Assembly (NCBI GenBank): GCA_903879985.1
Contig: CAIRNR010000007.1
Coordinates: 465,519 to 529,518 of the forward strand
Length of the DNA stretch: 64,000 bases
Direction of reading: 5' to 3'
Source: an uncultured candidate division WWE3 bacterium
Lineage (GTDB): Bacteria; Patescibacteriota; WWE3; UBA101185; UBA10185
In this document: piece after piece, positions 11,009 to 61,801 of the stretch
Layout: each line of letters opens with the position of its first letter
Numbering within the stretch: the first letter of the stretch is position 1
Program-made: the position numbers and the translations under genes
Notes under the pieces: model-generated
Database searches by the model: none
What the model was told of the DNA's origin: nothing
The model's input: only the letters and a program-made list of their open reading frames with translations

Positions 11009-12163
11009 TTACTTACTTTTTACGCCAAAGAGATATTTTTGGACGTATGCATGTATTTGGGAGTAGTCGCCTGCTTTTGGTAGTAATACCCAAGCGTTGT
11101 TGTACAAAGTTGAGTCTTGTGGACTATATAATAGTCCGCCTGTTTCAGCGTCGCCACGGTCGTCCAGTACAACTGAAACCATGTTGTGTAAGTCTACTTG
11201 CTGGGAAAGTGTGTAAAATGCTTGAACTGTGGATAAATCGATATTAGTTGCAACGTTATTTGCATATGCGTCGTACAAATCTTTTAGTTTTGATACATTA
11301 AGCAATGTATTTGTGGATAACGCGGCATCTTTAACGGCCATTATTATCTTTTGTTGTCTTTTAGCACGTGCAAAATCGGTTCCTTCGTTATTGTCGCCAT
11401 GTCTGGATCGTGCAAATTCCAGTGCTGTTTTTGCATCCATTTTCTGAGGTCCTGTATCAAAATGAATAGTAATGAATCGGCAAGGAAATACTTCAAGATC
11501 TGACTTTGTTTCTAATTCCTTATTTGCTTGTTCTGCAGATTTGCCGCAAGTGGCAGCTTCATTACCTTCAATAGGATAAGTGTAATCTGTAAAAGCGGTG
11601 TCTACATTTACTGTGATACCTCCCAAAGTGTTTATTATTTGGTCGAATATATCAAAGTTAACTAAAACGTAATAATGAAGTGGAATTCCTAAAACATTTT
11701 CTACACTTTTTGATATAGCAGGTCCACCGCCACCCTTTTGAGCAGCCTCACCCGCTTGGTATACCGCATTTATTTTTGATTGATAGTCTTTAACCCACAA
11801 GTCTCTTGGTAAGGAGATCATGACCACGTCGTTATCAACTTTACTTATTGATGCTATTAAAATAGTGTCAGTCAAAATATGTCCTGATTCGGCGCCATTA
11901 TCTCTCTGATCCGATCCTAGAATTAAAATATTTGTTCTTCCGTCAGTTTCTTTTAAGCTTGCTGTTGAAACGTTTGCTATGACCTCTATAGGATTAAACG
12001 AAGCCTTTATTTTATCTCTAAACAAAAAGAAAGCTCCTCCAAGTACGCCAAGAATAATCAGTACAACAACAATCGCAAACATTCCTGGTGATTTTGCTTC
12101 TGGTTCTCTAATGCTTGATATAGTGCTGGGTATTTTATTTTTACAGAGGTTAACGTATTTCAT
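11009..12163 (-). CDS. LytR-CpsA-Psr (LCP) family cell-wall polymer phosphotransferase
   Basis: 384 aa with an N-terminal TM and the LCP core motifs NILILGSDQRD, TDTILIA and LPRDLWV. Confidence 0.8.
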   Translation of the reverse strand: MKYVNLCKNKIPSTISSIREPEAKSPGMFAIVVVLIILGVLGGAFFLFRDKIKASFNPIEVIANVSTASLKETDGRTNILILGSDQRDNGAESGHILTDTILIASISKVDNDVVMISLPRDLWVKDYQSKINAVYQAGEAAQKGGGGPAISKSVENVLGIPLHYYVLVNFDIFDQIINTLGGITVNVDTAFTDYTYPIEGNEAATCGKSAEQANKELETKSDLEVFPCRFITIHFDTGPQKMDAKTALEFARSRHGDNNEGTDFARAKRQQKIIMAVKDAALSTNTLLNVSKLKDLYDAYANNVATNIDLSTVQAFYTLSQQVDLHNMVSVVLDDRGDAETGGLLYSPQDSTLYNNAWVLLPKAGDYSQIHAYVQKYLFGVKSK

Positions 12164-12174: not shown

Positions 12175-12831
12175 TTACTCAGCTTTGGCGTAAGCGTCAA
12201 TTATATCAATAAAGTGCTGAGGATCTAAGCTGGCGTTTCCGGGTAATGCCCCGCCAATTTGCGCAATCTTTGTAAGGTTTTCTACGTTGTTTCTGTTAAC
12301 GGATCCTCCGTAAATCAATGCTATATCTTTTGGTAAAGTGTCGCTTATATTTTTTATCCCAGTTTCTATCTCAGCTGGATCTTTTTCACGATACTGCCCG
12401 TTTACTGAAATATTGTTTGGATCTTCCCAAGCTAATAAAACACCCGGCGTATAAAGTTTTACGGCATCTTCAGGTGAAACAAAGCAAATGATTGGTGTAA
12501 TTTTATTGGCTAAACACATATCTCGTTTTTTAAGCACAACATCAATAGGTTCGTGGCGTTCACTATGTCCGACAATGGAATAATTGCAGAACTGTTTTAT
12601 CTGAAATGCGCCAACTTCGCCAGTATGTGCGCCCTTATCCAAAGTTGAAACATCCTGAGAGGCTAATTCGATTCCTGCACTTTTAGCAAATTCGGAAAGT
12701 AAAGGTAAATGTAAAAAAGATGCGGCGATAATAACTTTGTTTTGAGTATCTACTTTTTTGTAACCAGCAATCCACGAAGTGATGCTTGCCAAGTCCATAT
12801 TCATTTTCCAGTTGGCTATTATATATTTCAT
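12175..12831 (-). CDS. tpiA: Triosephosphate isomerase
   Basis: IIANWKMN, GHSERH, and YGGSV near the C-terminus. Confidence 0.9.
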   Translation of the reverse strand: MKYIIANWKMNMDLASITSWIAGYKKVDTQNKVIIAASFLHLPLLSEFAKSAGIELASQDVSTLDKGAHTGEVGAFQIKQFCNYSIVGHSERHEPIDVVLKKRDMCLANKITPIICFVSPEDAVKLYTPGVLLAWEDPNNISVNGQYREKDPAEIETGIKNISDTLPKDIALIYGGSVNRNNVENLTKIAQIGGALPGNASLDPQHFIDIIDAYAKAE

Positions 12832-12855: not shown

Positions 12856-13737
12856 TTAGGCGAGCCTCTTTAGCGATTCTTCAATCAAACTTGGTAAGAG
12901 TTCGATATCTTCGTGAGTATAATCATAACCCAAAACGTTGAGACACGAAAAGACAATTCCTAAATCAGAATAGATTTTGTCGGCATATTGGCATGCGACC
13001 AAACTGTGAAGTAAAACATTTCCGCCAATTTCTCCAACTTTAGATTTTCCACAACCCATTGGACAGTTTGCGCACGATGGATAGGATGCTTCAAGCACAC
13101 TGACATCTTCCTTTCGTATCAAAATACTTTTGTATAACTGTTGGTATTTATCGAAATTTACGGGTTTAGCAATTTCTGTTCCCGTTATAACAATGCCTTT
13201 TAGTTTTTTTGCGCGTAATTCGTGTTCAAAATAATCTTCAGGTGTTGTGAAGTAACCATTTAAGCTGACTTTTGTTCTTATGCCGTCTTCAAGAAAGATA
13301 TCGCCCCGTTTTCCCGGCAGACCCAAAGATAAAATATCTGTAATGCCGTCTTTAAATACCACATTTGTATTTTGAATATCCAGTATAACTTCCTGTTCTG
13401 ATTTTCCGTAAATAACAATGGCATCAAGTCCTGCGTATTTTATGCGTAAAGACAGATTACCGCCGATATAAATATCTTCTATTACGCCATCGTTGTTTAA
13501 GACAATTGAAGTTTTTGAAGCGTAAGGAAAAAATCCGTTGAATGGTCCTACCGATAAAACAATTGGTTCTTTATCAAAATGTGATTCCATTAACTTTAGT
13601 CCCAGTCCTACGCCGCCGATGTATTTGTTAAATTCCTTATACGTTTTGGCAACCGCGGTTTGGTCAGTTAAGTTTATTTCTAAAACTTTTTTAGCTGTTA
13701 AATCCACTTGTTTCTCCGTTATCCTCAACCAACTCAA
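12856..13737 (-). CDS. Truncated aldehyde:ferredoxin oxidoreductase (AOR)-family protein: AOR N-domain plus start of domain 2 with a CxxCxxxC motif
   Basis: 293 aa. MSWLRI..VDLT / IGGVGLGLKLM / PIVLSVGPFNG / LRIKYAGLDAIVIYGKSEQEVILDI aligns to the AOR N-terminal domain ([23 protein letters not shown]). CANCPMGCGKS matches the AOR [4Fe-4S] ligand motif CYACPIGCGR. The protein ends about 300 aa before a full AOR would. Confidence 0.6.
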   Translation of the reverse strand: MSWLRITEKQVDLTAKKVLEINLTDQTAVAKTYKEFNKYIGGVGLGLKLMESHFDKEPIVLSVGPFNGFFPYASKTSIVLNNDGVIEDIYIGGNLSLRIKYAGLDAIVIYGKSEQEVILDIQNTNVVFKDGITDILSLGLPGKRGDIFLEDGIRTKVSLNGYFTTPEDYFEHELRAKKLKGIVITGTEIAKPVNFDKYQQLYKSILIRKEDVSVLEASYPSCANCPMGCGKSKVGEIGGNVLLHSLVACQYADKIYSDLGIVFSCLNVLGYDYTHEDIELLPSLIEESLKRLA

Positions 13738-13984
13738 ATACTGCTCTTGGACAAATATTTTTTACTTTTTCTATATCCAGGGAACTTATACGTGGGTCTA
13801 TTTCTATTCCAAATTCTAAGTATTCTGATTTTTCTTTTCGTTTTCTAAAAATTCTGATTGGTGCGCCTTCAAGACCTACTTTTTTAAGTTGACGTTGTGT
13901 TTCAAGAACACAAAGCTCACAACCTATGCAGTTTTCCATGTAAGTAGCTTTTAGGATCTTAGTCATTTTTTGATAAAGCCTCAA
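13691..13984 (-). CDS. Small ferredoxin-like protein (single 4Fe-4S motif)
   Basis: CIGCELC ... CP arrangement. It overlaps pgk at the 5' end and the AOR-like gene at the 3' end; a start at the internal Met (about 13939) would remove the pgk overlap. Confidence 0.4.
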   Translation of the reverse strand: MRLYQKMTKILKATYMENCIGCELCVLETQRQLKKVGLEGAPIRIFRKRKEKSEYLEFGIEIDPRISSLDIEKVKNICPRAVFELVEDNGETSGFNS

Positions 13985-14960
13985 TTCCCGGCAGTGTTCC
14001 GTCAGCTAAAAATTGCAGCATTGCGCCACCACCTGTAGATACGAATGAAAATTTTTGTAATAAACCAAGTTGGTTGCAGGCTGTTATGGTATCGCCGCCG
14101 CCAATCACAGATAACGCTTCGTTGTGTGTTGTTGCCAAAGTAATGGCTTGAGCAATTCCTTGTGTGCCTTCCATGAACTGTGCTGTTTCGTAAGCGCCCA
14201 CGGGTCCGGCCCACAATATTGTTTTTGCTCTGCTAATTACATCGTTAAAACGCAAAACTGTGTTTGGTCCAATATCTTTTTGGTCGTCTGCGTAATCGGT
14301 GGGTAACATTAAATTCTCTGGAATTTCTGAAGTCCAATCAAGTCCAAGCTTTCCCCCAAGTAATACAAAGTCAGCAACTTCTAAAAACTTTGAAACAACG
14401 GGCATTTTACTTTCGAGTTTGGCACCCCCGATTATTACGGTTAATGGTCGTGCTGGTGTGTCTAAAATTTTAGAAAGTGTATCTATTTCTTTTTTAAGTC
14501 TGAACCCTGCGTATGAGGGTAAGTATTTTGTTATTCCTACAATTGATGCGTGCTTTCGGTGAGAAGTCGCAAAACTTTCATTAACATATATGTCGGCTTT
14601 TATAGATAGTTCTTTTGCATAGTTATCGTCATTTGTCTCTTCTCGAGGATCAAAGCGCAGATTTTCAAGAAGTTCAAATTTTTCTTCGCCTAAATGTTGA
14701 TTGAAATAAGGCATTAATTGTTGTGTGCTTAAACGTGGGTTTGGTTGACCGTCAGGTTTGCCCATATGTCCTGCAATTACAGGAATTCCCCCATGTTCAA
14801 TTATGTAGTTGAGTGTTTCCAGTGCTGATTCAATTCTGTATGTTTCACCAAGTGTTCCGTCAGAGTTTACTGGAACGTCGAGGTCGCATCTTACAAATAC
14901 TCGGGTGCCGTTTTTTATGTCGGCCTGTTCGATTGTTTTTATGTTTATCATTGTGTCCAT
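13959..14960 (-). CDS. pgk: Phosphoglycerate kinase (compact, 333 aa)
   Basis: RCDLDVP, LENLRF, YVNESFATSHRKHAS, IGGAKLESK, GGGDT. Confidence 0.9.
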   Translation of the reverse strand: MDTMINIKTIEQADIKNGTRVFVRCDLDVPVNSDGTLGETYRIESALETLNYIIEHGGIPVIAGHMGKPDGQPNPRLSTQQLMPYFNQHLGEEKFELLENLRFDPREETNDDNYAKELSIKADIYVNESFATSHRKHASIVGITKYLPSYAGFRLKKEIDTLSKILDTPARPLTVIIGGAKLESKMPVVSKFLEVADFVLLGGKLGLDWTSEIPENLMLPTDYADDQKDIGPNTVLRFNDVISRAKTILWAGPVGAYETAQFMEGTQGIAQAITLATTHNEALSVIGGGDTITACNQLGLLQKFSFVSTGGGAMLQFLADGTLPGIEALSKND

Positions 14961-15049: not shown

Positions 15050-15223
15050 ATGAGTTCGCAAAGTCGTAGATTTCCACGCATGGATGGCGGCACCAAACAT
15101 GCTTATGGGAAAATGTCTAAACGGTCCAAACCGCGCAAAGGTCTCATAATTGTCGGCGCTACTTTGCTTGTGATCCTGCTGGCGTTTATGATCTTCGTCG
15201 CGTTTGTGCCAATGCCTCACTAA
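15050..15223 (+). CDS. Putative small membrane protein (57 aa) antisense within gap-pgk intergenic region
   Basis: Near-ideal SD (aaAGAGGAGGaaaaaATG), a basic N-terminus, then one TM (IIVGATLLVILLAFMIFVAFV). I consider the longer ORF-track version starting at 14813 spurious. Confidence 0.3.
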   Translation: MSSQSRRFPRMDGGTKHAYGKMSKRSKPRKGLIIVGATLLVILLAFMIFVAFVPMPH

Positions 15224-15345
15224 CCAATTCCTTTGTGCATTTTGCCGAATTTGCACAAAACCCGGATTTCTTTTACAAAAAAGGAGTCCGGTTATTTTTT
15301 TATGCCGCGTTATTTATTTTTTAGTTGGAAATTACGGATATTACT

Positions 15346-16425
15346 TTAGCCTTGCATCAACAAACCCATCTCGACCAATCTATTGCTGTAACCCCATTCA
15401 TTATCGTACCAGGCCAAAACTTTAACTAAATCCCCGTCGACAACTTTAGTCATGCTTAAATCGACGATTGCTGAATAAGATGTGCCTATAATATCGGAAG
15501 ATGTTATTGGTTCAAACGTTGCATCTAAAACACCTTTATATTTTGGAAGTTTCATAGCTTCCATAAATGCATTGTTAACTTCGTCGACTGTAACTTTCTT
15601 ACTCAGTACCATTGTTATGTCCGACAGAGATCCGGTAATGATAGGAACGCGCACCGAAATTCCGTCAAATAATCCTGCGAGTTCAGGAATAACTTGCGTA
15701 GTTGCTTTTGCCGCTCCTGTTGTTGTTGGCGACATGTTGTACCCCGCAGCACGGCATCTTCGCATATCAATGTCATCTCCAAATGGGGCACTATCAACAA
15801 CACTTTGGTTGTTCGTTAACGCATGGATTGTAGTCATTACTGATTTCACAACTTTAAATTTGTTATTCATTACAGCTATAACAGGACTTATACAGTTTGT
15901 TGTGCATGATGCGTTTGAAATAATATTTTGTCCCAAATAGGAATCATCGTTTACGCCGCGTAAAAATGTTTGAACTGTGCCGCCTTTTGTTGGTGCGGAA
16001 ACCACAACTTTTTTAGCTCCGGCTTTAATGTGCACTTCTGCTGTGTTTTCTTTAACAAATCTTCCCGTGCATTCCAAAACCACATCAACATTTAAATCTT
16101 TCCATGGTAATTTTTCAGCATCTTTTTGTGCGATTACTTTTACTCTGTGCCCGTCGACAATGAGGTAATTTTCAGTTCCACTTTTTGAAAAGAATTCTTT
16201 ATCCCCAAGATTTTCTTCAAGTCCAAATGTTTTGCCGTCTTCTTCAATGAGAATTTCTTTATCGTAACCTCGGTAGGCTGTGTCGTATTTTAATAAGTGT
16301 GCCAAAATTCTGGGATTAGTAAGGTCGTTTATTGCAACAACTTCAGCTTCGGGCTTCGTAAGTGCAATCTTAAAAGATGCACGGCCAATTCTTCCAAAAC
16401 CATTAATTGCAATTCTTGTGGGCAT
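15346..16425 (-). CDS. gap: Glyceraldehyde-3-phosphate dehydrogenase (type I)
   Basis: NGFGRIGR, SNASCTTNC, WYDNEWGYS. Confidence 0.9.
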   Translation of the reverse strand: MPTRIAINGFGRIGRASFKIALTKPEAEVVAINDLTNPRILAHLLKYDTAYRGYDKEILIEEDGKTFGLEENLGDKEFFSKSGTENYLIVDGHRVKVIAQKDAEKLPWKDLNVDVVLECTGRFVKENTAEVHIKAGAKKVVVSAPTKGGTVQTFLRGVNDDSYLGQNIISNASCTTNCISPVIAVMNNKFKVVKSVMTTIHALTNNQSVVDSAPFGDDIDMRRCRAAGYNMSPTTTGAAKATTQVIPELAGLFDGISVRVPIITGSLSDITMVLSKKVTVDEVNNAFMEAMKLPKYKGVLDATFEPITSSDIIGTSYSAIVDLSMTKVVDGDLVKVLAWYDNEWGYSNRLVEMGLLMQG

Positions 16426-16462: not shown

Positions 16463-16726
16463 TTAAATACTTTTATCTAACCAGCTTTTTAAAACTTCTT
16501 TTGGCATTGCGCCGGTTTTTCTGTCTATTTCTTTTCCGTCTTTAACCAAGACAAAAGTTGGTATACTCATAATCCCGTATTTTGATGCTGTTTCTCCCTC
16601 TGCTTCAACATCTATGCTTTTGAATTCAATTTTTCCAGCATAATCTTTTTCTATCTCTTTAAATATTGGAGCCATTATTTTACAAGGCCCGCACCAGTCC
16701 GCAAAAAAATCTAATAGTTGTACCAT
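16463..16726 (-). CDS. trxA: Thioredoxin (short, 87 aa)
   Basis: WCGPC active site. I set the start at the internal Met, preceded by a GGAGG SD; the longer ORF-track N-terminus is not Trx-like. Confidence 0.8.
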   Translation of the reverse strand: MVQLLDFFADWCGPCKIMAPIFKEIEKDYAGKIEFKSIDVEAEGETASKYGIMSIPTFVLVKDGKEIDRKTGAMPKEVLKSWLDKSI

Positions 16727-16799
16727 TTTTATTCCTCCAAATTTAATTAGACTAGGAAAGACAGACAATATGATAACATAATTCCACATTTCAAAAGTT

Positions 16800-35694: not shown

Positions 35695-36693
35695 CTAAAC
35701 CAAAGAGGTTATTTTTGTATCTGTTAATTCTTTGTTAACCAAATATCTCGGTGGTTTTTTATTTATTAATACGTCCACAACGTTTTCAGCCGACATTCTT
35801 GCCATTTGAATTCTTGCTTCCCAAGTTGCGCTACCTATATGCGGCGTTAAGACGACATTTTCCAGCTTTAATAATGCGGGATGGATTTTAGGTTCTTCCT
35901 CAAACACGTCAATTCCTGCACCTGCAATATATCCTTCGGTTAATGCCGCTACAAGTGCGTCTTCGTCAACAATCGGGCCGCGTGCAGTATTTATTAAGTA
36001 AGCCAAAGGCTTCATTTTGTGAAATTCCTTTGCGCTTATCAAATGTCTTGTTGCTTCACATAAATTGCAATGAATTGAAACAATATCGCTGTTTTCTAAT
36101 AAATAATCTAATTCAACTTTTTCTGCGTCCAATAAACTTTCACCTTCTGGATGAGGCATTACATCGTTGTAAAGTATCCGCATATTCAAGCCATACTTAG
36201 CCATGCGCGCAAAATGTTGGCCTATGCGTCCAAAACCTACAATGCCTAAAGTTTTACCCATTAATTTTGGGCCAATCATAGACAGTGGATCCCAATATTT
36301 ATATTCCTTAGCTCTACAGAATCTATCAGCTTCGGCTGTGCGCCTCGTGACACTCATCATTAAGGCAAAAGCATGTTCCCCAACGGCTTCTGTTAAGTCG
36401 CCCGGAGTATTTGCAACGAATATACCTTTTTTGGTTGCTGTCGCTATATCAATGTTGTCATAACCAACAGAATATGTTGCTATTACTTTTAAATTCTTTC
36501 CAGCAGCCGTAATTATTTCTTTTGAAATGTCATCAGGTATTACCGGAATAATTGCGTCTACACCTTTAACAGCTTCCATAAGTTTTTCTTCTGTTAATGG
36601 TTTCCCTTGACGGTAATCTATTTCTATTTCACGGTATTGTTGCAAAATATTAATGCCTGCTTGTGGAATTTCTCTCGTGATTAAAACTTTCAT
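35695..36693 (-). CDS. D-isomer-specific 2-hydroxyacid dehydrogenase (glycerate/hydroxypyruvate reductase-like)
   Basis: NAD-binding GIVGFGRIGQ, a catalytic R/E/H pattern, and a 332-aa length. Confidence 0.85.
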   Translation of the reverse strand: MKVLITREIPQAGINILQQYREIEIDYRQGKPLTEEKLMEAVKGVDAIIPVIPDDISKEIITAAGKNLKVIATYSVGYDNIDIATATKKGIFVANTPGDLTEAVGEHAFALMMSVTRRTAEADRFCRAKEYKYWDPLSMIGPKLMGKTLGIVGFGRIGQHFARMAKYGLNMRILYNDVMPHPEGESLLDAEKVELDYLLENSDIVSIHCNLCEATRHLISAKEFHKMKPLAYLINTARGPIVDEDALVAALTEGYIAGAGIDVFEEEPKIHPALLKLENVVLTPHIGSATWEARIQMARMSAENVVDVLINKKPPRYLVNKELTDTKITSLV

Positions 36694-36695
36694 AT

Positions 36696-37562
36696 TTAAA
36701 TTCTACCAGAACTTCCAAAAAGTTTTATTTTGTATTCAACAACTTTTTGAACAGCCGCGATAGGTTTTTCCATAAATTTGTAAACGGCAATTTCGTTAGA
36801 AGAATTAATAACTTCTTGTAACGTCATTTTAAAAGCTATTCTCATTTCTGAGTTTACGTTTACCTTAATAATGCCCAGTTTTATAGCTTCCGTAACATCT
36901 TCATCAAAAATTCCCGAACCCCCGTGCAATGATAGGTATGTGTGTGGCAGTAATGATTTAATTTCGTGTAATCTTTCAAGATCTAAATGTTTTTGGTTAG
37001 CGTAAATGCCGTGAAGGTTTCCAATAAAGCTGGCGAATACATCAACGCCTGTAGCTTCAGCAAATTCTTTTGCTTTTTCAGGTTTAGTAAATAATTCGCT
37101 CTTTGCGTATTGAGAAGTATTTTCTGCAGTATGATCGGCTGAGCTTCCTTCGATATGATCCATTTCACCTTCGACCATTACGCCACGTTTGTGCGCGTAT
37201 TCAACAACTTCCCGTGCCAGCTTTACATTTTCATCAAATCCAAGTTTTCCGCCGTCAAAGTGAACATAGTCAAAGCCTTCGTCGATGCCTTTTTTTAACA
37301 CATCTACATCTGTGCCGTGATCTAAGTTTAATATTATAGGAATTTGAAGTTCTTCCTCGTAGGTTCTTACCAGTCGCACAAGTTGTTTTATACCAACGTA
37401 CTGTACTTCACCCGGGGAAGCTTCTATTAGTACTGGTGATGAAAGTTTTTTAGCCGCGTTTGTAATAGCTTTAATTGTTTCTAAAGACGCTGAGTTAAAT
37501 GCACCGATAGCGTATTTGCCCGCATTGGCTTTATCAAATAATAGTTGTGCTTTGTTGGTCAT
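36696..37562 (-). CDS. fba: Class II fructose-bisphosphate aldolase
   Basis: PVLIEASPGE, LNLDHGTD, LHGGSGI. Confidence 0.9.
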   Translation of the reverse strand: MTNKAQLLFDKANAGKYAIGAFNSASLETIKAITNAAKKLSSPVLIEASPGEVQYVGIKQLVRLVRTYEEELQIPIILNLDHGTDVDVLKKGIDEGFDYVHFDGGKLGFDENVKLAREVVEYAHKRGVMVEGEMDHIEGSSADHTAENTSQYAKSELFTKPEKAKEFAEATGVDVFASFIGNLHGIYANQKHLDLERLHEIKSLLPHTYLSLHGGSGIFDEDVTEAIKLGIIKVNVNSEMRIAFKMTLQEVINSSNEIAVYKFMEKPIAAVQKVVEYKIKLFGSSGRI

Positions 37563-37566
37563 ATAT

Positions 37567-38526
37567 TTATTTAAGAGTTTTCACAACTTCTTCTATTTGA
37601 GCTTTTGTGAGAACGCCTTTAGTTGCTCCTATAACTTTAACATTTGCTCCGGAATTTACAGTGCCCCAAAGTAGGGCTTCATGCATGTCTTTTCCGTATG
37701 TTATTGCTGCTAAAAATCCTGCAGCAAAGGAATCGCCAGCTCCTGTTTTATCCAGCACAGGTCGGGAGTCAGAATAAATTGGTACATTTAGGGTTTCGTT
37801 TCCGTCACTGGCGCTTGCTCCGTTAGCTGCTTCGGTAATTACGCTCATTTTTACGCCTAACTTGTGAAGGCCTTCATGTAATTTTGGTATTTCGTAGTCT
37901 CCAACTATCTGTTTTGCTTCTTCAACGTTTAAAAATAGAATATCTGTGTATTTTAGAAACTCTTTAAAAGACTCTAGGCCAGTCTTAAGTTGATATGTTC
38001 CTGGATTGAACGCCACGCCTATGTTTTTCCCGGCGGGAGACGCGAGATATTGTATAAATTGTTTTTGAAATTCCTCGAACCCATAGCCCATGGATGAGTA
38101 ATAAATCCATTTTGGCTTTTCCCAATCTAAAACTCGGTAGTTTCTCTTTTCATGGTAGGAAAAAATCGTTCTTTCGCCGCCGTATACGATTACGGTGTGC
38201 ACATTGGTAGGAGATCCGGGATTTTTAAGGCAGTACTTAGTGTCCACGCCTAAGGTTTTGAGTTCGGACACTATTCTTTCCCCGTTGCTATCATCTCCAA
38301 GCTCGGTGTATATGGAAGTTTGCAAACCTAAAAGCTGACAGGAGACCCCAACATTTAGCGAATTTCCAGCAATCGACGTCTCAAAGTGCTCGACGGGTAT
38401 TTTAGACCCGTGGTAAAAGCATATTCGTGGGTTTCCTGCTTTATCGGAGGCCGCAAGTTCATTGTTGTCAGCGATTTTCATATATAAGTCGATGTCAACA
38501 TCGCCTATAGTTAATAGGTCTATCAT
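37567..38526 (-). CDS. PfkB-family sugar/sugar-phosphate kinase
   Basis: A GG N-terminal motif and DKTGAGDSFAAGFL (the PfkB signature 2). Confidence 0.8.
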   Translation of the reverse strand: MIDLLTIGDVDIDLYMKIADNNELAASDKAGNPRICFYHGSKIPVEHFETSIAGNSLNVGVSCQLLGLQTSIYTELGDDSNGERIVSELKTLGVDTKYCLKNPGSPTNVHTVIVYGGERTIFSYHEKRNYRVLDWEKPKWIYYSSMGYGFEEFQKQFIQYLASPAGKNIGVAFNPGTYQLKTGLESFKEFLKYTDILFLNVEEAKQIVGDYEIPKLHEGLHKLGVKMSVITEAANGASASDGNETLNVPIYSDSRPVLDKTGAGDSFAAGFLAAITYGKDMHEALLWGTVNSGANVKVIGATKGVLTKAQIEEVVKTLK

Positions 38527-39515
38527 TTACTATTTACCTTTTCTAAAAATTTTAACGTTTCTATCACAATATGCTGCGAACTCAGCCCATATTTATCTTT
38601 TAATTCCTGATAACTACCGGATTCCCCAAAAGTGTCTTGAACGGCCATGATTTTTTGAGGAGTAGGAAGATTTTCGGCTAATATTTCGGCCACAGCGCTT
38701 CCAAAACCTCCATATTTCTGATGTTCCTCGATGGTTATTATTTTTCCGGTCTTTTTTACAGAGTTTATTAAAGTTTCTTCGTCCATAGGTTTTATTGTTG
38801 GAAATGCCAGAACTTCAACTTCAATATGGTGCTTAGCTTTCAGCTCTTTTGCCGCCTGTAAGGCTTCATAAACGATTGGTCCTGTCGCGGCTAGTGTTAG
38901 AGCCTCGCCTTCAACTAACACTTGAGCTTTTCCTATTTCAAAAGGCGTATCTGCTGACGTAATTATTGGCGTTTCTTCTTTGGATACACGGATATACACA
39001 GGTCCTACGTGTTTTATTGCCATTTCCACGGCCTTTTGTGTTTGCCAATAATCAATAGGGTTAAGCACAGTCATATTTGGAAGCACACGTACAAGGGCAA
39101 TGTCCTCAAGAGATAACGCAGCGCCTCCGTCTGGCCCGTTAGATAAACCTGAATGTGATCCGATAAGTTTTACGTTAGCGTTTGAAAAGCATACTGAAAG
39201 CCTTAGTTGTGCCCAATTTTGTGAAGGTTGGAAGTTAGCATGTGTACAGCTAAATGGGATTTTTCCGGACAAGGCTAGTCCTGTGGCAATACCTGCCATG
39301 TTTTGTTCTGCAATTCCAACTTCAATAAAACGCTCGGGATAGGCTTTTGCAAATTTGTCTAATTTAAGTGACTCTGTTAAATCGCAGGTTAATGCAATAA
39401 TGCGTGGGTCTTTACCAAATTCCACCAAAGCATCCCCAAAGCCTTGTCTTGTGGATTTTAACTCCACATCCTTTAAAAATATCTCTTCGTTTAAATGCAG
39501 CTTCGGGTTTAACAT
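38523..39515 (-). CDS. Transketolase, C-terminal (pyrimidine-binding + C-domain) subunit
   Basis: FIEVGIAEQNMAGIATGLA, plus transketolase Pyr and C domains. Confidence 0.85.
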   Translation of the reverse strand: MLNPKLHLNEEIFLKDVELKSTRQGFGDALVEFGKDPRIIALTCDLTESLKLDKFAKAYPERFIEVGIAEQNMAGIATGLALSGKIPFSCTHANFQPSQNWAQLRLSVCFSNANVKLIGSHSGLSNGPDGGAALSLEDIALVRVLPNMTVLNPIDYWQTQKAVEMAIKHVGPVYIRVSKEETPIITSADTPFEIGKAQVLVEGEALTLAATGPIVYEALQAAKELKAKHHIEVEVLAFPTIKPMDEETLINSVKKTGKIITIEEHQKYGGFGSAVAEILAENLPTPQKIMAVQDTFGESGSYQELKDKYGLSSQHIVIETLKFLEKVNSK

Positions 39516-39543
39516 TGGGCAGTTAGTTTTTAATCCTTACAAT

Positions 39544-40128
39544 TTACTTAGTAGGTTGTGGTTGCGTGCTATCTGATGATTGATTACTGTTATCACTGCT
39601 ACAGTCCGCAACTTTCTTTACACGATCAAAGTTAATCTCGTAGTCTGTTTTGGATATTGCAACTGCGTCGGCTGTAATATTTGATTCTTTATCAACTTTA
39701 CAGTTAGCCCCTGCTTCTGTTTCTTCAATTGAGATAGACAGTGTTTTGTTTGCCTTGTCTTCGTATATTTTTTTGATCTGGATTTTGTGTCCACTTTCGG
39801 TTTGTGTGTCGCTTGATACAGCTAGAATGTATTCTTTATTAAAATCTACAGGACTTCTTACTGTGGTCATGCCTGTTGGGTCAATAGAGTTCAAAAACGT
39901 TGCAAGTTCTGCCTGGCTTTTTACAACCAGTCTTTGTTTTTGCATAACTTTATCCGTAACAATAGCTGTTGGAAAACCATCTAATCTTCTAATTTGTGGT
40001 CCTTTGTTAAATTGAGGAAGTTTAATTTCGCCTTGTAATAAAAAGTAACCGGCCCCAAGTATTAGACCAATAATTATTACTAATGGTATCAAACTCATTC
40101 TTAAAGTTGCTCTTTGATTATTAGTCAT
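39544..40128 (-). CDS. Membrane-anchored hypothetical protein inserted between the two transketolase halves
   Basis: 194 aa with an N-terminal TM and an extracytoplasmic domain carrying two Cys. Confidence 0.5.
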   Translation of the reverse strand: MTNNQRATLRMSLIPLVIIIGLILGAGYFLLQGEIKLPQFNKGPQIRRLDGFPTAIVTDKVMQKQRLVVKSQAELATFLNSIDPTGMTTVRSPVDFNKEYILAVSSDTQTESGHKIQIKKIYEDKANKTLSISIEETEAGANCKVDKESNITADAVAISKTDYEINFDRVKKVADCSSDNSNQSSDSTQPQPTK

Positions 40129-41011
40129 ATTCTGATTTTATTTTACCTTGTAAAGATCTAAGGCTTTTAATTGCCTTAAGGGCTTGATCTTTATTTGGAG
40201 GCTTACCATGCCATTCAAATTTATACTCCATAAAGTCTACACCCTTACCTGGTATAGTATGTGCGATTATTGCGGTAGGACGTTGCGCCACCGATTTAGC
40301 CATTCTACATGAATTTATAATTTCTTCAAAGTTATGGCCATCTATCTCTACAACGAACCAATTGAAACTTTCAAGTTTATTTCTAAGATTTTCTAGGGGC
40401 ATTACATCTTCGGTTTGGCCATCAATCTGAATATTGTTTCGATCGATTATCCACGTTAGGTTATCCAGCTTTTTATTTGGAGCAAACATAGCGCCTTCCC
40501 ATATTTGACCTTCTTCAAGTTCGCCGTCACCGGTCATGACATAAACTCTGTTGCTTTGTTTATTTATTTTTGCTGCTAACGCCATACCTAACGCTTGTGA
40601 AAATCCTTGACCTAAAGAACCGCTTGAATTTTCTATTCCAGGCAGCTCGTTATATTTTGGATGTCCTTGTAACGGGGAGTTAATTTTTCGTAGTTTCCAC
40701 AAAAGAGATTTATCAAAATAACCTCGTTCCGCTAATGTTGCGTAAAGTATCGGACAAATGTGTCCGTTTGATAAAACAAAAATGTCGCGGGTTGGGTCTG
40801 TTGGGTTTTTTGGATCGATATTTAAAATATGAAAGTATAGTGCTGTGAATATATCAGCTGTTCCAAGTGAACCGGCTGTATGCCCTGATTTAGCCTCAAG
40901 TAACATCTTTATTACAGTTTCTCGTAAAGTTTCAGCTGTCTTTTCAAGCGCTTCTAGATTTATATTGTTGGGCATTACACAAAGTATATTTTTTTTAGAC
41001 AAAATTTTCAA
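40121..41011 (-). CDS. Transketolase, N-terminal (TPP-binding) subunit
   Basis: GHTAGSLGTADI, SNGHICPILY, GDGELEEG. Confidence 0.85.
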   Translation of the reverse strand: MKILSKKNILCVMPNNINLEALEKTAETLRETVIKMLLEAKSGHTAGSLGTADIFTALYFHILNIDPKNPTDPTRDIFVLSNGHICPILYATLAERGYFDKSLLWKLRKINSPLQGHPKYNELPGIENSSGSLGQGFSQALGMALAAKINKQSNRVYVMTGDGELEEGQIWEGAMFAPNKKLDNLTWIIDRNNIQIDGQTEDVMPLENLRNKLESFNWFVVEIDGHNFEEIINSCRMAKSVAQRPTAIIAHTIPGKGVDFMEYKFEWHGKPPNKDQALKAIKSLRSLQGKIKSEYD

Positions 41012-41341
41012 GGCGGTTGACAGTAAATGCGAATTAAGATATAAGTTAAAGGCTTCTGAATTGGGTTGGTCGTTTTGTGTTTCGCACTAGGTTGAGTAAA
41101 TTTCCTCTAACCTGAAATACATACTACCTTCTCAGCGTCTCGGCATCCGGCTCTAGCCTCTTTCGTTTGGTTGAAGCCACCTCCCTCCTTTCACGGCGGG
41201 CAAGTTGTTCAAGATTTTTTTGACGGCTTGCTCGCTACTTTTTTGCACTTTTCCTGGGTTTGACATAACCTATAATAATGTGTTATAAAAGTGGGCATAA
41301 GTCAACGATATCAACAGTGCGCTTGAGGAAGGAGGAAAATA

Positions 41342-41515
41342 ATGCACATCGAATTCTGCTTTTTTGTTGAACGGCCGAGCTTTTGGGATGATATTTGCAA
41401 CATAATTGCACTCCCACATCGCTTTTCAAAAGGAGCAGTTTGCGGAGTTACAATGGGAAAAAAGCTTGTCACAAACAATGTCCCAAAGTTTCGTCCGCGT
41501 TTGAATATTAAGTAG
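41342..41515 (+). CDS. Putative 57-aa ORF with strong SD in a 600-bp intergenic region
   Basis: gaAGGAGGaaaataATG, a possible upstream TTGACA-N18-TATAAA promoter, and the terminator downstream. Confidence 0.25.
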   Translation: MHIEFCFFVERPSFWDDICNIIALPHRFSKGAVCGVTMGKKLVTNNVPKFRPRLNIK

Positions 41516-41559
41516 TTCCTTATTGATTTCGCTAAGCATAAGGCACTGGAACTGGTAAC

Positions 41560-41601
41560 GGTCGCAACTGAATAAACTTCTTTTGCGACCGTATTTTTTT
41601 T
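41560..41601 (+). terminator. Intrinsic terminator (plus strand)
   Basis: ggtcgcaa...ttgcgacc stem followed by gtattttttttg. Confidence 0.55.
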
Positions 41602-41614
41602 GCTTGGAAAATAT

Positions 41615-42856
41615 TTAACTCAGACTTTTTATAATATCTAAAACTTCTTGTGGTGTAGTACAGACTTTTAAAATATCGCGTTCGCCGGCTGGAATTAACA
41701 TCGTTTCTTCAATAGTATCCAACAGTTTATTCCAAAAGGCACCGTACAATACTATTGTTTTACTGTTAGGCTCATGAATCCATGATGACACCCATGTCAT
41801 ACCAAATTCACTTAACGTACCAATGCTTCCCTTAAAAACAATATGAACGTCTGCATTTTGTAGCATAACTTTTGTTCTGTCAAAATAATCGAGTGTAAGT
41901 ATTTCCTCATCAAAATCATTTCCTTTACCAACACCCTCGTAATGTCTTTTTGGTTTGTTTGGATGATAGGTTATTGCTAATGCTCTTTTACCGGCAGCAT
42001 GTGCACCTTTTGTAGCTGCTTCCATAACGCCTGGGCCGCCTCCATTAACTACTTCGTAATTGTTTGCGGCTAAGACTTTTGCAACTTCAAAAGCATCTTT
42101 ATATGGTTGATCAGTACTTTGCCATGAAGCTCCTCCCAAAAAAGCAATTTTCTTAGCAAGTATTGGTTTAACATCGTATAAAGAACTTATTTGGTTTGCG
42201 TCAGTTGTTTTAGTCATATTTGTAAATTCCAAATACTTTTGTCTTGGGTTTGTATCTCTAACTATAGCAGAACCAATTACGGCACTGTCAATTCCTGTTT
42301 GCAACAATTGTTTAATATTTTGTTCCTTAATTCCGCCATCAACCTGTACCGGCATTTCGGGATACTTTTTTTTAAACTGTGTGATTTTTGTTAATACTTC
42401 AGGCAAAAATGGATGACCTTGTCCGCCCGGCTTCACACTTAAAAACTGAACGTAATCGGCCGCATCCATAACTTTATCCAGTGCTTCCAAAGGTGTTTCA
42501 GGATTTATAGCTACACCTGCAACATATTTAAGTTCGTGTGCGCGTGATAAAAATTCTTTAATATCATTATTTTCAATATGTGCGCAAATTTTAATAACAT
42601 TTGGTATTGCTTGTTTCAGGTAATCCATTGGATTTTCAACCATCAAATCGACTTCAAAAAATTGCTCAGAAAACATGGAAATCTTTTCTATTTCTAAAAA
42701 GGTTTTACCCTCAACAAACTGTCCATCAACAATATCAATTTGAACGAGTGGCGCGTCTCCGGCAAGTAGACTTAGTTTTCTTTCCACTTCGGCAATATCG
42801 GGCTCAAGTATGGTTGGGATTATTTTAGGAAAGAAGTTTTGGGCAGTTTTATTCAT
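41615..42856 (-). CDS. Fusion: ribulose-phosphate 3-epimerase (N) plus LOG/TIGR00730-family Rossmann domain (C)
   Basis: N-terminal half: IDIVDGQFVEG, VDLMVENP, LSVKPGGQGHPF, VQVDGGI (Rpe). C-terminal half: NGGGPGVMEAATKGA and FKGSIGTLSEF (LOG family). Confidence 0.75.
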   Translation of the reverse strand: MNKTAQNFFPKIIPTILEPDIAEVERKLSLLAGDAPLVQIDIVDGQFVEGKTFLEIEKISMFSEQFFEVDLMVENPMDYLKQAIPNVIKICAHIENNDIKEFLSRAHELKYVAGVAINPETPLEALDKVMDAADYVQFLSVKPGGQGHPFLPEVLTKITQFKKKYPEMPVQVDGGIKEQNIKQLLQTGIDSAVIGSAIVRDTNPRQKYLEFTNMTKTTDANQISSLYDVKPILAKKIAFLGGASWQSTDQPYKDAFEVAKVLAANNYEVVNGGGPGVMEAATKGAHAAGKRALAITYHPNKPKRHYEGVGKGNDFDEEILTLDYFDRTKVMLQNADVHIVFKGSIGTLSEFGMTWVSSWIHEPNSKTIVLYGAFWNKLLDTIEETMLIPAGERDILKVCTTPQEVLDIIKSLS

Positions 42857-42864
42857 TTTTGTTT

Positions 42865-43305
42865 TTATTCCAAATAGCTGGAAATTTCGGCTAGCCTTCT
42901 TAGATGGCGTTCACTACAACTGAATGGCGTTTGCAACCAAGCTTCAACAGTTTCACAGGCGTTTTGATCAGAAATATAATCGGATGGAAGTGCCAATACA
43001 TTCGCGTCGTCGTCGGCTCTTGAAGATATAGCGTGTTGTGGGTTCCAAGAAAGGGCCGCGCGTATGTTTTTATATTTATTAGCAAACATACTTACGCCCA
43101 CACCATTTCGGCAAATTAAAATACCTTTTGATTCAGGATCGTCTTTCATTTTTTCGGCAAGATTTGCAACATACTCCGGGTAATCGTCACCTTTTTCAAG
43201 ATCGAAAGGTCCTAAGTCTTCTACGTCGTACCCTTTATTTGTTACAAATTGGATAATTTTATTTTTTAGTTCGAAACCACCATGATCCGATGAAATATAT
43301 AGCAT
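42865..43305 (-). CDS. rpiB: Ribose-5-phosphate isomerase B
   Basis: ISSDHGGFELK and CRNGVGVSMFANK (RpiB/LacAB fold). Confidence 0.85.
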   Translation of the reverse strand: MLYISSDHGGFELKNKIIQFVTNKGYDVEDLGPFDLEKGDDYPEYVANLAEKMKDDPESKGILICRNGVGVSMFANKYKNIRAALSWNPQHAISSRADDDANVLALPSDYISDQNACETVEAWLQTPFSCSERHLRRLAEISSYLE

Positions 43306-58176: not shown

Positions 58177-58469
58177 TCCGGAAGTCTTGACTTTACCCAT
58201 TTATATTGATATTAATACAACACTAGTGTAATATCACTTGTCGTACGTTGATAACTAAATAGTTAAGAGCAAAAAAGCACAAATCTTTTTAAATCGCTTT
58301 AGCCGGCGATGTACAAAAGATACAATTTATTGCCACGTCCCAAGTGGTAGTAAATAAAATTGCCATAGCCAATATGGCGACTTTCAATTCGCAAGAATCG
58401 AAAGGCAAGAAGAATCGACCAAACCAAAACGTTTATACGCTATTGACGCATTAATAAACGTTTTTTTCT

Positions 58470-59906
<1,437 letters not shown>

Positions 59907-60310
59907 CTAAGGGAGAAAATCCGTATTTTTGATTGAAGGACCATTGATCTAGTACTTGCTATTAGGAAATGCCTTTGAAATATAAAGTACACTCAACATT
60001 GGATTAGCTCTAAAATGTTGTTTTAATTAGCTGTCGTCAAAACGCCTTTAGACAGCAGAGTAGGTTTTAAAGCGAGCCTAAACTTTTACAACCGGAAGAT
60101 CCTTCTTGCCTTTTGGCACTTGAAATTGAAATTTGTGTAATTAACTCTTAACTTGAATTTAGAAAAAAGCATCCTTAATTGGATGCTTTTTTTTTGAGCT
60201 TTAGCGAGAAAAACGTCAGCAGACATTTTGTGGCTATTATTGAAAACCAGCTGTTCTGGTGGTATAAACTTATTCTTGATACAAAAATCTATGTGAGGAG
60301 GAGAGCGATA

Positions 60311-60943: not shown

Positions 60944-60969
60944 TTTAAAATCTGGTTAACAATCAATAG

Positions 60970-61008: not shown

Positions 61009-61021
61009 GTGTTTGGGTAAA

Positions 61022-61098
<77 letters not shown>

Positions 61099-61800: not shown

Positions 61801-61801
61801 T

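What the first reader, a model, noticed from the sequence alone, without database searches (positions are those of the whole stretch)
12856..13984. Truncated AOR-family (tungstopterin oxidoreductase) N-domain protein plus ferredoxin embedded in the gap-pgk-tpiA operon
Two genes sit between pgk and tpiA, on the same strand and tightly packed with the glycolytic genes. The 293-aa product aligns end to end with the N-terminal domain of aldehyde:ferredoxin oxidoreductases (LRIKYAGLDAIVIYGKSEQEVILDI versus [23 protein letters not shown]) and keeps the AOR [4Fe-4S] motif CANCPMGCG. It stops about 300 aa short of a full AOR, so the pterin-binding domains and the fourth Cys ligand are missing. Immediately upstream is a small single-cluster ferredoxin-like gene. 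The only AOR-family enzyme acting on a glycolytic intermediate is GAPOR, and here the fragment lies exactly between gap/pgk and tpiA. The gene could be a decayed GAPOR, or a repurposed stand-alone AOR N-domain working with ferredoxin. I know of no described family of roughly 300-aa AOR N-domain proteins, so the latter would be new.
Basis: partly seen in the sequence, partly recalled or inferred. Interest (0 to 1): 0.65.

Follow-up and report, generated by a model that had tools for sequence, protein, structure and literature searches.

The report
Pterin-less mini tungsten-enzyme relative with ferredoxin
Between the glycolysis genes pgk and tpiA, this candidate-phylum (WWE3) bacterium encodes a conserved, half-size relative of tungsten aldehyde oxidoreductases that has lost its whole tungsten-cofactor pocket but kept its iron-sulfur site. 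It is always paired with a tiny ferredoxin-like protein, so it is a working but uncharacterised iron-sulfur protein and not a broken gene.

Summary
The two genes are real, on the minus strand and tightly packed between pgk and tpiA. True sizes are 283 aa (GTG 13707) and 91 aa (ATG 13966). The larger protein belongs to the AOR/WOR family by Pfam AFOR_N (E 1e-20) and by fold.

It is not a C-terminal truncation. Internal deletions removed the tungstopterin pocket, including the positions of all four second-shell residues.

The family is about 280 aa in at least 65 species-level WWE3/Patescibacteria genomes. In every locus the single-cluster ferredoxin-like gene lies directly upstream, usually overlapping, and tpi lies directly downstream. 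dN/dS is about 0.23, the same as pgk. Sister lineages carry a roughly 540-aa AFOR_N+AFOR_C protein with the same small partner in the same slot after pgk.

The best reading is a reduced WorS/WorL pair that survives as a two-cluster iron-sulfur module and not as an aldehyde oxidoreductase. Its physiological role is unknown. The decayed-pseudogene, assembly-artefact and simple split-gene readings are not supported, and no specific affinity to archaeal GAPOR was found. Databases already name the family generically, so this is a new variant of a known kind, of moderate interest.

The parts
12856..13707 (-). Gene for the 283-aa reduced AOR/WOR-family protein ('mini-WorL', P0001), GTG start, TAA stop
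   Evidence: ORF. Identical 283-aa protein is called on 12 contigs. AFOR_N E 1.1e-20. Foldseek hits with E<=1e-3 are all AOR-family structures.
13051..13074 (-). Codons for Cys212-x2-Cys215-x3-Cys219 (CANCPMGC), equivalent to PfAOR Cys288/291/295, three [4Fe-4S] ligands
   Evidence: Read from the sequence. Invariant or nearly invariant in A1 and A3. Aligned to 1AOR via P0216 and directly.
13024..13044 (-). Junction of the main internal deletion (GKSKVGEIGGN). About 160-180 residues of the pterin-binding domains 2 and 3 are missing here relative to full-length relatives.
   Evidence: hmmsearch gives separate collinear matches for the flanking parts (profile 204-217 to P0216 264-277, weak; profile 228-267 to P0216 444-483, E 3e-9). 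tblastn of P0216 matches window 13707-13051 and 13035-12901 only. E-INS-i alignment.
12991..12993 (-). Codon for Cys239 (SLVAC), equivalent to PfAOR Cys494, the fourth [4Fe-4S] ligand
   Evidence: Short family aligns SLVAC to P0222 SLVIC. P0222 SLVIC aligns to 1AOR DSAGLC494. Invariant in A1 and A3.
12943..12945 (-). Codon for Cys255, a fifth Cys that is nearly invariant in the short family only; role unknown
   Evidence: Not conserved in the long forms.
13691..13966 (-). Gene for the 91-aa single-cluster ferredoxin-like protein ('mini-WorS'). Its ATG overlaps the pgk stop (ATGACTAA) and its stop lies 17 nt inside the next gene.
   Evidence: Sequence. 50 homologs of 77-100 aa. Invariant C13, C16, C19, C72-P73. 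Model pLDDT 83 with ferredoxin-type Fe-S subunits as best, non-significant, fold matches.
13959..14960 (-). pgk (phosphoglycerate kinase, 333 aa), immediately upstream
   Evidence: Pfam PGK E 2.6e-87.
12175..12831 (-). tpiA (triosephosphate isomerase, 218 aa), 24 nt downstream
   Evidence: Pfam TIM E 1.1e-37. tpi follows the short gene in every locus with enough flank.
15346..16425 (-). gap (type I GAPDH, 359 aa), upstream of pgk but separated from it by a 385-nt spacer
   Evidence: NCBIfam TIGR01534 E 6e-111. Spacer.
16463..16789 (-). Thioredoxin gene at the head of the conserved block
   Evidence: Pfam Thioredoxin E 1.1e-25. Conserved position.
11009..12163 (-). LytR/CpsA/Psr-family gene, next downstream. 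It is part of the same conserved collinear block, which shows that the synteny extends to functionally unrelated genes.
   Evidence: Gene calls with PF03816. tblastn synteny.

Best explanation
The 283-aa protein is a functional, strongly reduced member of the AOR/WOR (tungsten oxidoreductase) family. It keeps the beta-sandwich domain 1 and the complete four-cysteine [4Fe-4S] site, equivalent to PfAOR Cys288/291/295/494. Internal deletions removed the helical domains that hold the tungstopterin, and with them the positions of the second-shell residues Thr243, Glu313, Tyr427 and His448 and the DxxGLD pterin motif. It therefore cannot be a canonical aldehyde or GAP oxidoreductase.

It is co-translated with a 91-aa protein carrying one CxxCxxC...CP [4Fe-4S] motif. 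I read the pair as a minimised WorS/WorL heterodimer with one cluster in each subunit. It would act as a low-potential electron-transfer or redox-sensing module expressed together with pgk and tpi.

It descends from a two-domain WOR-like protein of about 540 aa, with the same small partner, that occupies the same position after pgk in sister WWE3 lineages. The ancestral enzyme may have been a ferredoxin-linked triose-phosphate (GOR-like) oxidoreductase.

Shown: family membership, the architecture, Cys retention, pairing, synteny and purifying selection. Inferred: cluster binding, heterodimer formation, absence of pterin and the electron-transfer role. The physiological partner is unknown.
For: Family and fold:
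- AFOR_N E 1.1e-20.
- PDB sequence hits to WOR5, FOR and AOR.
- The nine Foldseek hits with E<=1e-3 are all AOR-family, E 1.6e-12 to 3.6e-10.

Architecture:
- The A1 profile matches 538-588-aa relatives in separate collinear pieces. The C-terminal piece (profile 228-268) matches their residues about 444-494, E 3e-9 and 5e-9.
- tblastn shows the same split.
- 1AOR numbering was verified from its sequence. Alignment shows the four Cys kept and T243, E313, Y427 and H448 deleted.
- No AFOR_C hit.

Conservation:
- 290 homologs, and the best 120 listed are all 278-309 aa.
- 43 clusters at 50% identity with E<1e-30; the complete ones are 270-324 aa, then a jump to proteins of 538 aa and longer.
- Cys212, Cys215 and Cys239 are invariant and Cys219 nearly invariant down to 26% identity.
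- dN/dS is 0.23 for this gene and 0.24 for the small gene, against pgk 0.23 and tpi 0.32.

Pairing:
- The small gene lies directly upstream in 72 of 72 loci and overlaps in 59, with -17 nt the commonest spacing.
- It has invariant CxxCxxC...CP.
- Its best fold matches are ferredoxin-type Fe-S subunits, including the WOR5 and AorA small subunits.

Origin:
- Proteins of 538-550 aa with AFOR_N+AFOR_C and a 78-100-aa CxxCxxC...CP partner sit in the same slot: (gap/pgk)-small-AOR-lytR-holA. Some are labelled WWE3.
- The nearest non-CPR relative checked has a Fer4 protein overlapping its start, the WorS-WorL order.
- Class II WORs, including bacterial GOR, are WorL+WorS (PMC13328260).
Against: - No biochemical data exist. 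Cluster binding is inferred from motifs only.
- The AlphaFold model is unreliable for residues 202-283 (pLDDT below 50), exactly the region that carries the cysteines.
- The small protein fails the Pfam Fer4 thresholds (E 0.05-0.5). It has no significant PDB sequence or fold hit.
- Two long-form orthologs (P0215, P0218) have lost all four cluster cysteines yet remain in place with their partner. The conserved function of the lineage may therefore not need the large-subunit cluster.
- The whole block of about 12 kb, including lytR, holA and sortase, is collinear across these genomes. Position between pgk and tpi is therefore weak evidence for a glycolytic role.
- A GOR or GAPOR origin has no sequence support. 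There is no hit to NCBIfam GAPOR_Arch, and no GOR reference sequence was available.
- Absence of pterin biosynthesis genes in the genome was not checked.
Confidence: 0.6

Rival explanations
1. Non-redox structural or regulatory protein. The AOR-derived fold is kept as a scaffold or sensor, for example binding PGK, TPI or GAPDH, or sensing oxygen or redox state through a labile cluster. Electron transfer as such is not its job.
For: Long-form positional orthologs P0215 and P0218 have lost all four cluster cysteines but are still conserved with their small partner. The most conserved parts shared by short and long forms are domain 1 and the helix after Cys494, not the catalytic pocket. The gene is tightly coupled to pgk and tpi.
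Against: Within the short family the four cluster Cys are invariant or nearly so down to 26% identity. The partner keeps a canonical ferredoxin Cys pattern. No interaction data exist.
Confidence: 0.2
2. Ferredoxin-dependent thiol/disulfide reductase, analogous to ferredoxin:thioredoxin reductase. The exposed [4Fe-4S] cluster plus the extra conserved Cys255 would reduce thioredoxin or the catalytic cysteine of GAPDH.
For: A thioredoxin gene heads the conserved block, and in L079 it lies directly upstream of the pair. A fifth Cys is nearly invariant in the short family only.
Against: FTR chemistry needs a redox-active Cys pair next to the cluster, and only one spare Cys is conserved. There is no similarity to FTR. 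Long-form loci L076 and L077 lack an adjacent trx. A TrxB-like reductase gene is present near one locus.
Confidence: 0.06
3. Still part of a pterin enzyme. The missing pterin-binding domains are supplied in trans by another gene elsewhere in the genome (split enzyme), so the complex remains a GAP or aldehyde:ferredoxin oxidoreductase.
For: Only 64 kb of this genome and about 10 kb around the orthologs were examined.
Against: The deletion is internal and both flanks are fused in one ORF, which is not how split genes look. No AFOR_C-like sequence occurs elsewhere in the window. The published analysis of the complete WWE3 genome mentions only a 'ferredoxin oxidoreductase-like protein' and no tungsten or molybdenum metabolism (PMC3812714).
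Confidence: 0.05
4. Decaying relic (pseudogene in progress) of a GAPOR/GOR-type enzyme, or an assembly artefact, with no current function.
For: Large loss of sequence relative to AOR. Location next to gap and pgk.
Against: The identical protein is found on 12 independent contigs and the family is in a complete genome. Length is conserved at about 280 aa in at least 65 species. The frame is intact, residues are invariant, and dN/dS is about 0.23, the same as pgk.
Confidence: 0.03

Closest known systems
Class II tungsten oxidoreductases (WorL + WorS): P. furiosus WOR5/ASOR (PDB 6x1o, 6x6u) and bacterial GOR of Caldicellulosiruptor bescii
   Same: The large subunit belongs to the same family: AFOR_N domain, same fold, same four Cys for one [4Fe-4S] cluster. 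A small Fe-S protein is encoded immediately upstream, in WorS-WorL order. GOR acts on glyceraldehyde-3-phosphate, the substrate of the neighbouring gap gene (PMC13328260).
   Different: No AFOR_C domain, no pterin pocket and no second-shell catalytic residues. The small subunit has one Cys motif instead of four clusters and is 91 aa instead of roughly 150-170 aa. Sequence affinity to GOR itself could not be tested.
P. furiosus aldehyde:ferredoxin oxidoreductase (PDB 1AOR), the family archetype
   Same: Domain 1 aligns: GPLxG, the basic residue at Arg76 (Lys65 here), GG, and (A/T)G(L/Y)DA(I/V)V(I/V)xGK. CxxCPxGCG and the Cys494 helix also align.
   Different: 283 aa against 605 aa. About PfAOR 229-280, 298-478 and everything after about 540 are absent, plus two small deletions inside domain 1. 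Asn93 is replaced by an invariant Tyr.
The AOR-like proteins of about 540 aa in WWE3/Patescibacteria (P0216, P0220, P0331, P0215, P0218), uncharacterised
   Same: Positional orthologs. They sit after pgk or gap, are preceded by a 78-100-aa CxxCxxC...CP protein and are followed by lytR-holA. They are the closest full-length relatives by profile score, 93-117 bits.
   Different: They keep AFOR_C. Some keep Thr243, Glu313, Tyr427 and the four Cys, but His448 is Leu and Lys450 is Asp. Others have lost all four Cys. tpi does not follow them.
Small single-[4Fe-4S] ferredoxins (for example Thermotoga or Pyrococcus type), physiological partners of AORs
   Same: Size class and the CxxCxxC...CP ligand pattern. 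The predicted alpha/beta fold most resembles ferredoxin-type Fe-S subunits.
   Different: Scores below all Pfam Fer4 cutoffs. A conserved insert of about 50 residues lies between the third and fourth Cys, with its own motif (CELCVLEAQRQLKKVGLEG). It is found only next to these AOR-like genes.

Membership tests
AOR/WOR family large subunit (WorL) | N-terminal domain AFOR_N (PF02730 / IPR013983) | tested here: met
   E 1.1e-20, 74.6 bits against a cutoff of 29.8, but only profile positions 2-128 of 199. The fold matches AOR-family structures at E 1.6e-12 to 3.6e-10.
AOR/WOR family large subunit (WorL) | C-terminal domains AFOR_C (PF01314 / IPR001203), required together with the N domain in the 2026 WOR classification (PMC13328260) | tested here: not met
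   No PF01314 hit at E<=1. Only a segment of about 55 residues, equivalent to PfAOR 486-540, remains.
AOR/WOR family large subunit (WorL) | Four Cys ligands of the [4Fe-4S] cluster (PfAOR Cys288, 291, 295, 494) | tested here: met
   Cys212, 215, 219 and 239 align to them. Cys212, Cys215 and Cys239 are invariant and Cys219 nearly invariant across the family. Actual cluster binding was not tested.
AOR/WOR family large subunit (WorL) | Second-shell active-site residues Thr243, Glu313, Tyr427, His448 (PMC12096430, PMC13328260) | tested here: not met
   All four positions fall inside the deleted segments.
AOR/WOR family large subunit (WorL) | Pterin-binding DxxGL(D/C) motifs at PfAOR 338-344 and 489-495 (motif definition recalled from Chan et al. 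1995; residues checked against the 1AOR sequence) | tested here: not met
   The first motif is deleted. The second is HSLVAC, with only the Cys kept.
AOR/WOR family large subunit (WorL) | Bound tungsten or molybdenum bis-pyranopterin cofactor | not testable with these tools
   Needs metal and cofactor analysis of the protein.
Archaeal GAPOR | Match to the NCBIfam equivalog NF040818 (GAPOR_Arch, cutoff 1300 bits) | tested here: not met
   No hit at E<=1 for the 283-aa protein. Long relatives score only 18-34 bits, below their generic AOR score.
Bacterial GOR / Class II WOR | WorL accompanied by an adjacent WorS subunit with four [4Fe-4S] clusters | tested here: not met
   An adjacent small Fe-S gene is present in 72 of 72 loci. 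It has only four conserved Cys, enough for one cluster, in 91 aa.
Bacterial GOR / Class II WOR | Phylogenetic placement with C. bescii GOR (clade 20) | not tested
Bacterial-type [4Fe-4S] ferredoxin (small protein) | CxxCxxC...CP cluster-binding pattern | tested here: met
   C13, C16, C19 and C72-P73 are invariant in 20 sequences.
Bacterial-type [4Fe-4S] ferredoxin (small protein) | Pfam Fer4-type domain above gathering score, or a significant ferredoxin fold match | tested here: inconclusive
   Fer4 families at E 0.05-0.5, below their cutoffs. Foldseek best hits are ferredoxin-type Fe-S subunits at E 0.24-0.6, probability up to 0.85, TM about 0.55.

The most novel reading that the evidence does not exclude
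A tungsten enzyme has been stripped to its iron-sulfur core. The resulting two-protein, two-cluster module has acquired a new dedicated role in triose-phosphate metabolism of WWE3 bacteria. One possibility is a ferredoxin-linked redox switch or partner for GAPDH, PGK or TPI. Another is a new cofactor-free Fe-S catalyst that uses the cluster face exposed where the pterin used to sit.
Probability: 0.15. Interest if true: 0.7.

Novelty: new variant of a known kind. Interest (0 to 1): 0.45.

Why it matters
Current classifications of tungsten oxidoreductases require both the N- and C-terminal domains (PMC13328260), so they exclude this family by design. It is a natural minimal version of the enzyme: domain 1 plus the [4Fe-4S] site, without the cofactor pocket.

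It also comes with a series of related forms in related genomes. These run from roughly 580-aa relatives with a multi-cluster partner, to roughly 540-aa forms with altered active-site residues, then either to 540-aa forms without cysteines or to the 280-aa form.

Three things could follow. It could show which parts of the WorL fold are needed to hold the cluster and dock ferredoxin. It illustrates how reduced-genome CPR bacteria recycle cofactor-dependent enzymes. It flags a conserved unknown redox component expressed with core glycolysis genes in a whole class of uncultivated bacteria. It does not by itself solve a long-standing question.

Tried and rejected
- The search for related loci with the divergent alignment A3 failed because it had no conserved stretch. 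A1 was used instead.
- The literature search for 'AFOR_N' returned only irrelevant name matches. Searches combining AOR with WWE3, CPR or Patescibacteria found no description of the family.
- A PDB profile search for the small protein gave only chance-level hits. Its Foldseek search gave no hit with E<=1e-3.
- AlphaFold modelling of residues 202-283 was low-confidence, so the geometry of the four Cys could not be checked.
- GAPOR affinity was looked for and not found.
- A displaced AFOR_C half was looked for in the 64-kb window and not found. Whole genomes could not be searched.
- dN/dS values are rough because dS is near saturation, about 1.7. I use them only relative to the neighbouring genes.
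- Rfam found no RNA element in the operon region.
- Promoter and terminator scans were at background level, apart from the hairpin at 15262-15291.
Full report
**What is in the window**

On the minus strand lie trx (16463-16789), gap (15346-16425), pgk (13959-14960), a small Cys-containing ORF, an AOR-like ORF, tpiA (12175-12831) and a LytR-family gene (11009-12163).

Reading the sequence with the ortholog alignments and existing gene calls gives these boundaries:
- The small gene starts at ATG 13966. The ATG overlaps the pgk stop as ATGACTAA. The product is 91 aa.
- The AOR-like gene starts at GTG 13707, 17 nt before the stop of the small gene. The product is 283 aa and is identical to database protein P0001.
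- tpiA starts 24 nt after the AOR-like gene's stop.

GC content is uniform across the region.

gap is not contiguous with pgk here. A 385-nt spacer holds an opposite-strand 57-aa ORF with a GGAGG ribosome-binding site and a 13-bp hairpin followed by a T-run. The likely transcription unit is therefore pgk, the small gene, the AOR-like gene, tpi and onward.

**Checking the observation**

- Pfam AFOR_N is hit at E 1.1e-20, but only over residues 17-130, profile positions 2-128 of 199. AFOR_C is not hit.
- Sequence search of the PDB finds WOR5, FOR, WOR83, AOR and BamB over the same N-terminal stretch.
- An AlphaFold model built from 31 family members is confident for residues 1-200 and poor for 202-283.
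- Foldseek against the PDB returns nine hits with E<=1e-3, from 1.6e-12 to 3.6e-10. All nine are AOR-family enzymes.
- The motif CANCPMGCG aligns with PfAOR C288-Y-A-C291-P-I-G-C295-G.

**The architecture is not a truncation**

A profile search of 1.84 billion representative proteins finds 43 clusters with E<1e-30. All are the same family. The complete ones are about 270-324 aa and the shorter entries match only part of the profile. The next hits are full-size relatives of 538-604 aa.

I aligned the family profile to five of these relatives (P0215, P0216, P0218, P0220, P0222). It matches in separate collinear pieces:
- The N-terminal part matches their residues 1 to about 225.
- The CxxCxxxC motif matches at about 264-296 (weakly).
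- The last part of the profile (positions 228-268, ...SLVAC..IY.D.G.VFSCLN.LGY.YTHE...) matches their residues about 444-530, with E 3e-9 and 5e-9 for P0216 and P0215.

tblastn of these proteins against the window shows the same two collinear pieces in this one gene, and nothing else in the 64 kb.

P0222 aligns end to end with 1AOR (E 6.6e-64). Its SLVIC aligns with 1AOR D489-S-A-G-L-C494. I rebuilt the 1AOR sequence from that alignment and confirmed the numbering of R76, N93, C288/291/295, E313, D338-D343, H448, K450 and C494.

An E-INS-i alignment of 1AOR, the long forms and the short forms shows what the short family lacks:
- about PfAOR 137-148 and 160-167, inside domain 1;
- about 229-280;
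- about 298-478;
- everything beyond about 540.

All four [4Fe-4S] cysteines are kept. The four second-shell residues that reviews list as conserved in aldehyde-oxidising members are Thr243, Glu313, Tyr427 and His448 (PMC12096430, PMC13328260). All four, and the first DxxGLD motif, fall in deleted segments. 'Stops 300 aa short' also misdescribes the gene.

**Conservation**

- The word-index search finds 290 homologs. The best 120 listed are all 278-309 aa and come from WWE3/Patescibacteria where named. NCBI calls them 'aldehyde ferredoxin oxidoreductase N-terminal domain-containing protein'.
- In 31 sequences there are 57 invariant residues, including five cysteines: 212, 215, 219, 239 and 255.
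- Adding members down to 26% identity, Cys212, Cys215 and Cys239 stay invariant, and Cys219 and Cys255 nearly so.
- The identical protein is read on 12 independent contigs.
- A scan of one genome per species finds the short form in 65 genomes, including the complete chromosome CP006914 (RAAC2_WWE3_1).
- Rough pairwise dN/dS is 0.23 for this gene and 0.24 for the small gene. It is 0.17 for gap, 0.23 for pgk and 0.32 for tpi. dS is near saturation.

This excludes an artefact or a decaying gene.

**The partner**

The small protein has 50 homologs of 77-100 aa, all unnamed or loosely called ferredoxin or PreA. Invariant residues include C13, C16, C19 and C72-P73, the classic single-cluster ferredoxin pattern, plus a family-specific stretch.

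It fails the Pfam Fer4 cutoffs and has no significant PDB sequence hit. Its model (pLDDT 83) has no Foldseek hit at E<=1e-3. Eight of its nine best matches (E 0.24-0.6, probability up to 0.85) are ferredoxin-type Fe-S proteins: NdhI, FwdF, FdhB, PsrB, the WOR5 small subunit and AorA. 'Ferredoxin-like, one cluster' is a reasonable but not proven call.

The small gene lies directly upstream of the AOR-like gene in 72 of 72 loci. It overlaps that gene in 59, most often by 17 nt.

**Synteny and origin**

In all short-form loci with enough flank the order is (trx)-(gap)-(pgk)-small-short-tpi-lytR. Deeply divergent members at 28-39% identity keep small-short-tpi-lytR, preceded by gap, trx or pgk.

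Proteins of 538-550 aa with AFOR_N+AFOR_C occupy the same slot in related genomes: (gap or pgk)-small(78-100 aa, CxxCxxC...CP)-AOR-like-lytR-holA. No tpi follows them. This long clade has at least 40 clusters at 90% identity, and one member is labelled WWE3.

Among the long forms:
- P0216 and P0220 keep the four Cys and Thr243, Glu313 and Tyr427. His448 is Leu and Lys450 is Asp.
- P0215 and P0218 have lost all four Cys.

The nearest non-CPR relatives are proteins of about 580 aa from Firmicutes, Treponema and Desulfo- bacteria. In one Peptococcaceae genome such a protein is preceded by an overlapping 127-aa Fer4 protein and is not in a glycolytic context.

The short gene is thus the positional ortholog of a WorS/WorL-type pair that was already placed after pgk in the common ancestor of these lineages.

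**How it most likely works**

The pocket that holds the tungstopterin is gone. The large subunit's four cluster ligands are strictly kept, and the partner keeps a ferredoxin pattern. I therefore read the pair as a minimised WorS/WorL heterodimer with one [4Fe-4S] cluster per subunit, acting in electron transfer or redox sensing and not in aldehyde oxidation.

WWE3 bacteria are described as fermenters with PFOR and a group 3b hydrogenase (PMC3812714). One divergent locus lies next to such hydrogenase genes. Reduced ferredoxin is therefore available.

An ancestral ferredoxin-linked GAP oxidoreductase would explain the position beside gap and pgk. Bacterial GOR is a Class II WorL+WorS enzyme (PMC13328260). 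I could not test sequence affinity to GOR, and the archaeal GAPOR model is not hit.

Two cautions apply. First, the whole block of about 12 kb, including lytR, holA and sortase, is collinear in these genomes, so the position is weak functional evidence. Second, the Cys-less long forms show that the lineage's function may not always need the large-subunit cluster.

**Rivals**

- Non-redox scaffold or sensor: about 0.2.
- FTR-like disulfide reductase using the fifth Cys and the neighbouring thioredoxin: about 0.06.
- Trans-split pterin enzyme: about 0.05.
- Relic or artefact: about 0.03.

**Comparison with what is known, and novelty**

The protein meets two defining features of WorL: the AFOR_N domain and the four Cys. 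It fails three: AFOR_C, the second-shell residues and the pterin motifs. It should be described as derived from the AOR/WOR family, not as a member enzyme.

The most recent WOR classification selected sequences that have both domains, so it did not cover this family. The only literature trace found is the phrase 'ferredoxin oxidoreductase-like protein' for the complete WWE3 genome. Databases already carry generic names.

I rate it a new variant of a known kind, of moderate interest (0.45). Its main value is as a natural minimal WorL and as a conserved unknown redox component next to core glycolysis genes in a large uncultivated lineage.

Noticed in passing
window 15050-15223 (+) and 15262-15291: An opposite-strand 57-aa ORF sits in the 385-nt spacer between gap and pgk. 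It has a basic N-terminus, one predicted membrane helix and a strong GGAGG site 6 nt before its ATG. A 13-bp hairpin with a T-run follows it. tblastn finds the ORF only in contigs of the same organism (L001, L002). In most related genomes gap and pgk are about 30-80 nt apart.
   Followed up: partly
L076, L077 (proteins P0218, P0215): These AOR-like proteins of 550 aa have AFOR_N+AFOR_C but have lost all four [4Fe-4S] cysteines and Thr243. They are still preceded by a small CxxCxxC...CP protein in the conserved slot. This looks like a second, independent route of cofactor loss in the same lineage.
   Followed up: partly
P0222 and about 75 further relatives of about 580 aa; L081: This is an uncharacterised AOR-family group of about 580 aa in Clostridia, Treponema, Peptococcaceae and Desulfo- bacteria. 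NCBI gives it only 'domain-containing' names. In the one member inspected (P0222), His448 and Lys450 are replaced while Thr243, Glu313, Tyr427 and the four Cys are kept. One member is preceded by an overlapping 127-aa Fer4 protein.
   Followed up: partly
window 58466-64000: The 16S rRNA gene (58466-59906) and the start of the 23S gene (63409) are 3.5 kb apart. The spacer holds three protein-coding ORFs, one a CofD-family protein (61802-62806), and two tRNA genes on opposite strands.
   Followed up: partly
window 35695-43305 (-): A sugar-phosphate gene cluster: rpiB, ribulose-phosphate 3-epimerase fused to a LOG/lysine-decarboxylase-like domain (413 aa), split transketolase (N and C genes), a PfkB-family kinase, class II fructose-bisphosphate aldolase and a D-2-hydroxyacid dehydrogenase. 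It matches the cluster described for the complete WWE3 genome in PMC3812714.
   Followed up: partly
window 12175-12831 and 13959-14960; related loci: TPI (218 aa) and PGK (333 aa) are shorter than typical bacterial enzymes. tpi follows the AOR-like gene only in lineages with the short form. In the four long-form loci examined, lytR follows directly and tpi must lie elsewhere.
   Followed up: partly
L080 804-4622: In a deeply divergent short-form locus, the pgk-small-short-tpi block is immediately preceded, divergently, by a four-gene NiFe hydrogenase cluster: a Fer4 protein, an FAD/NAD-binding protein, and the small and large subunits.
   Followed up: no
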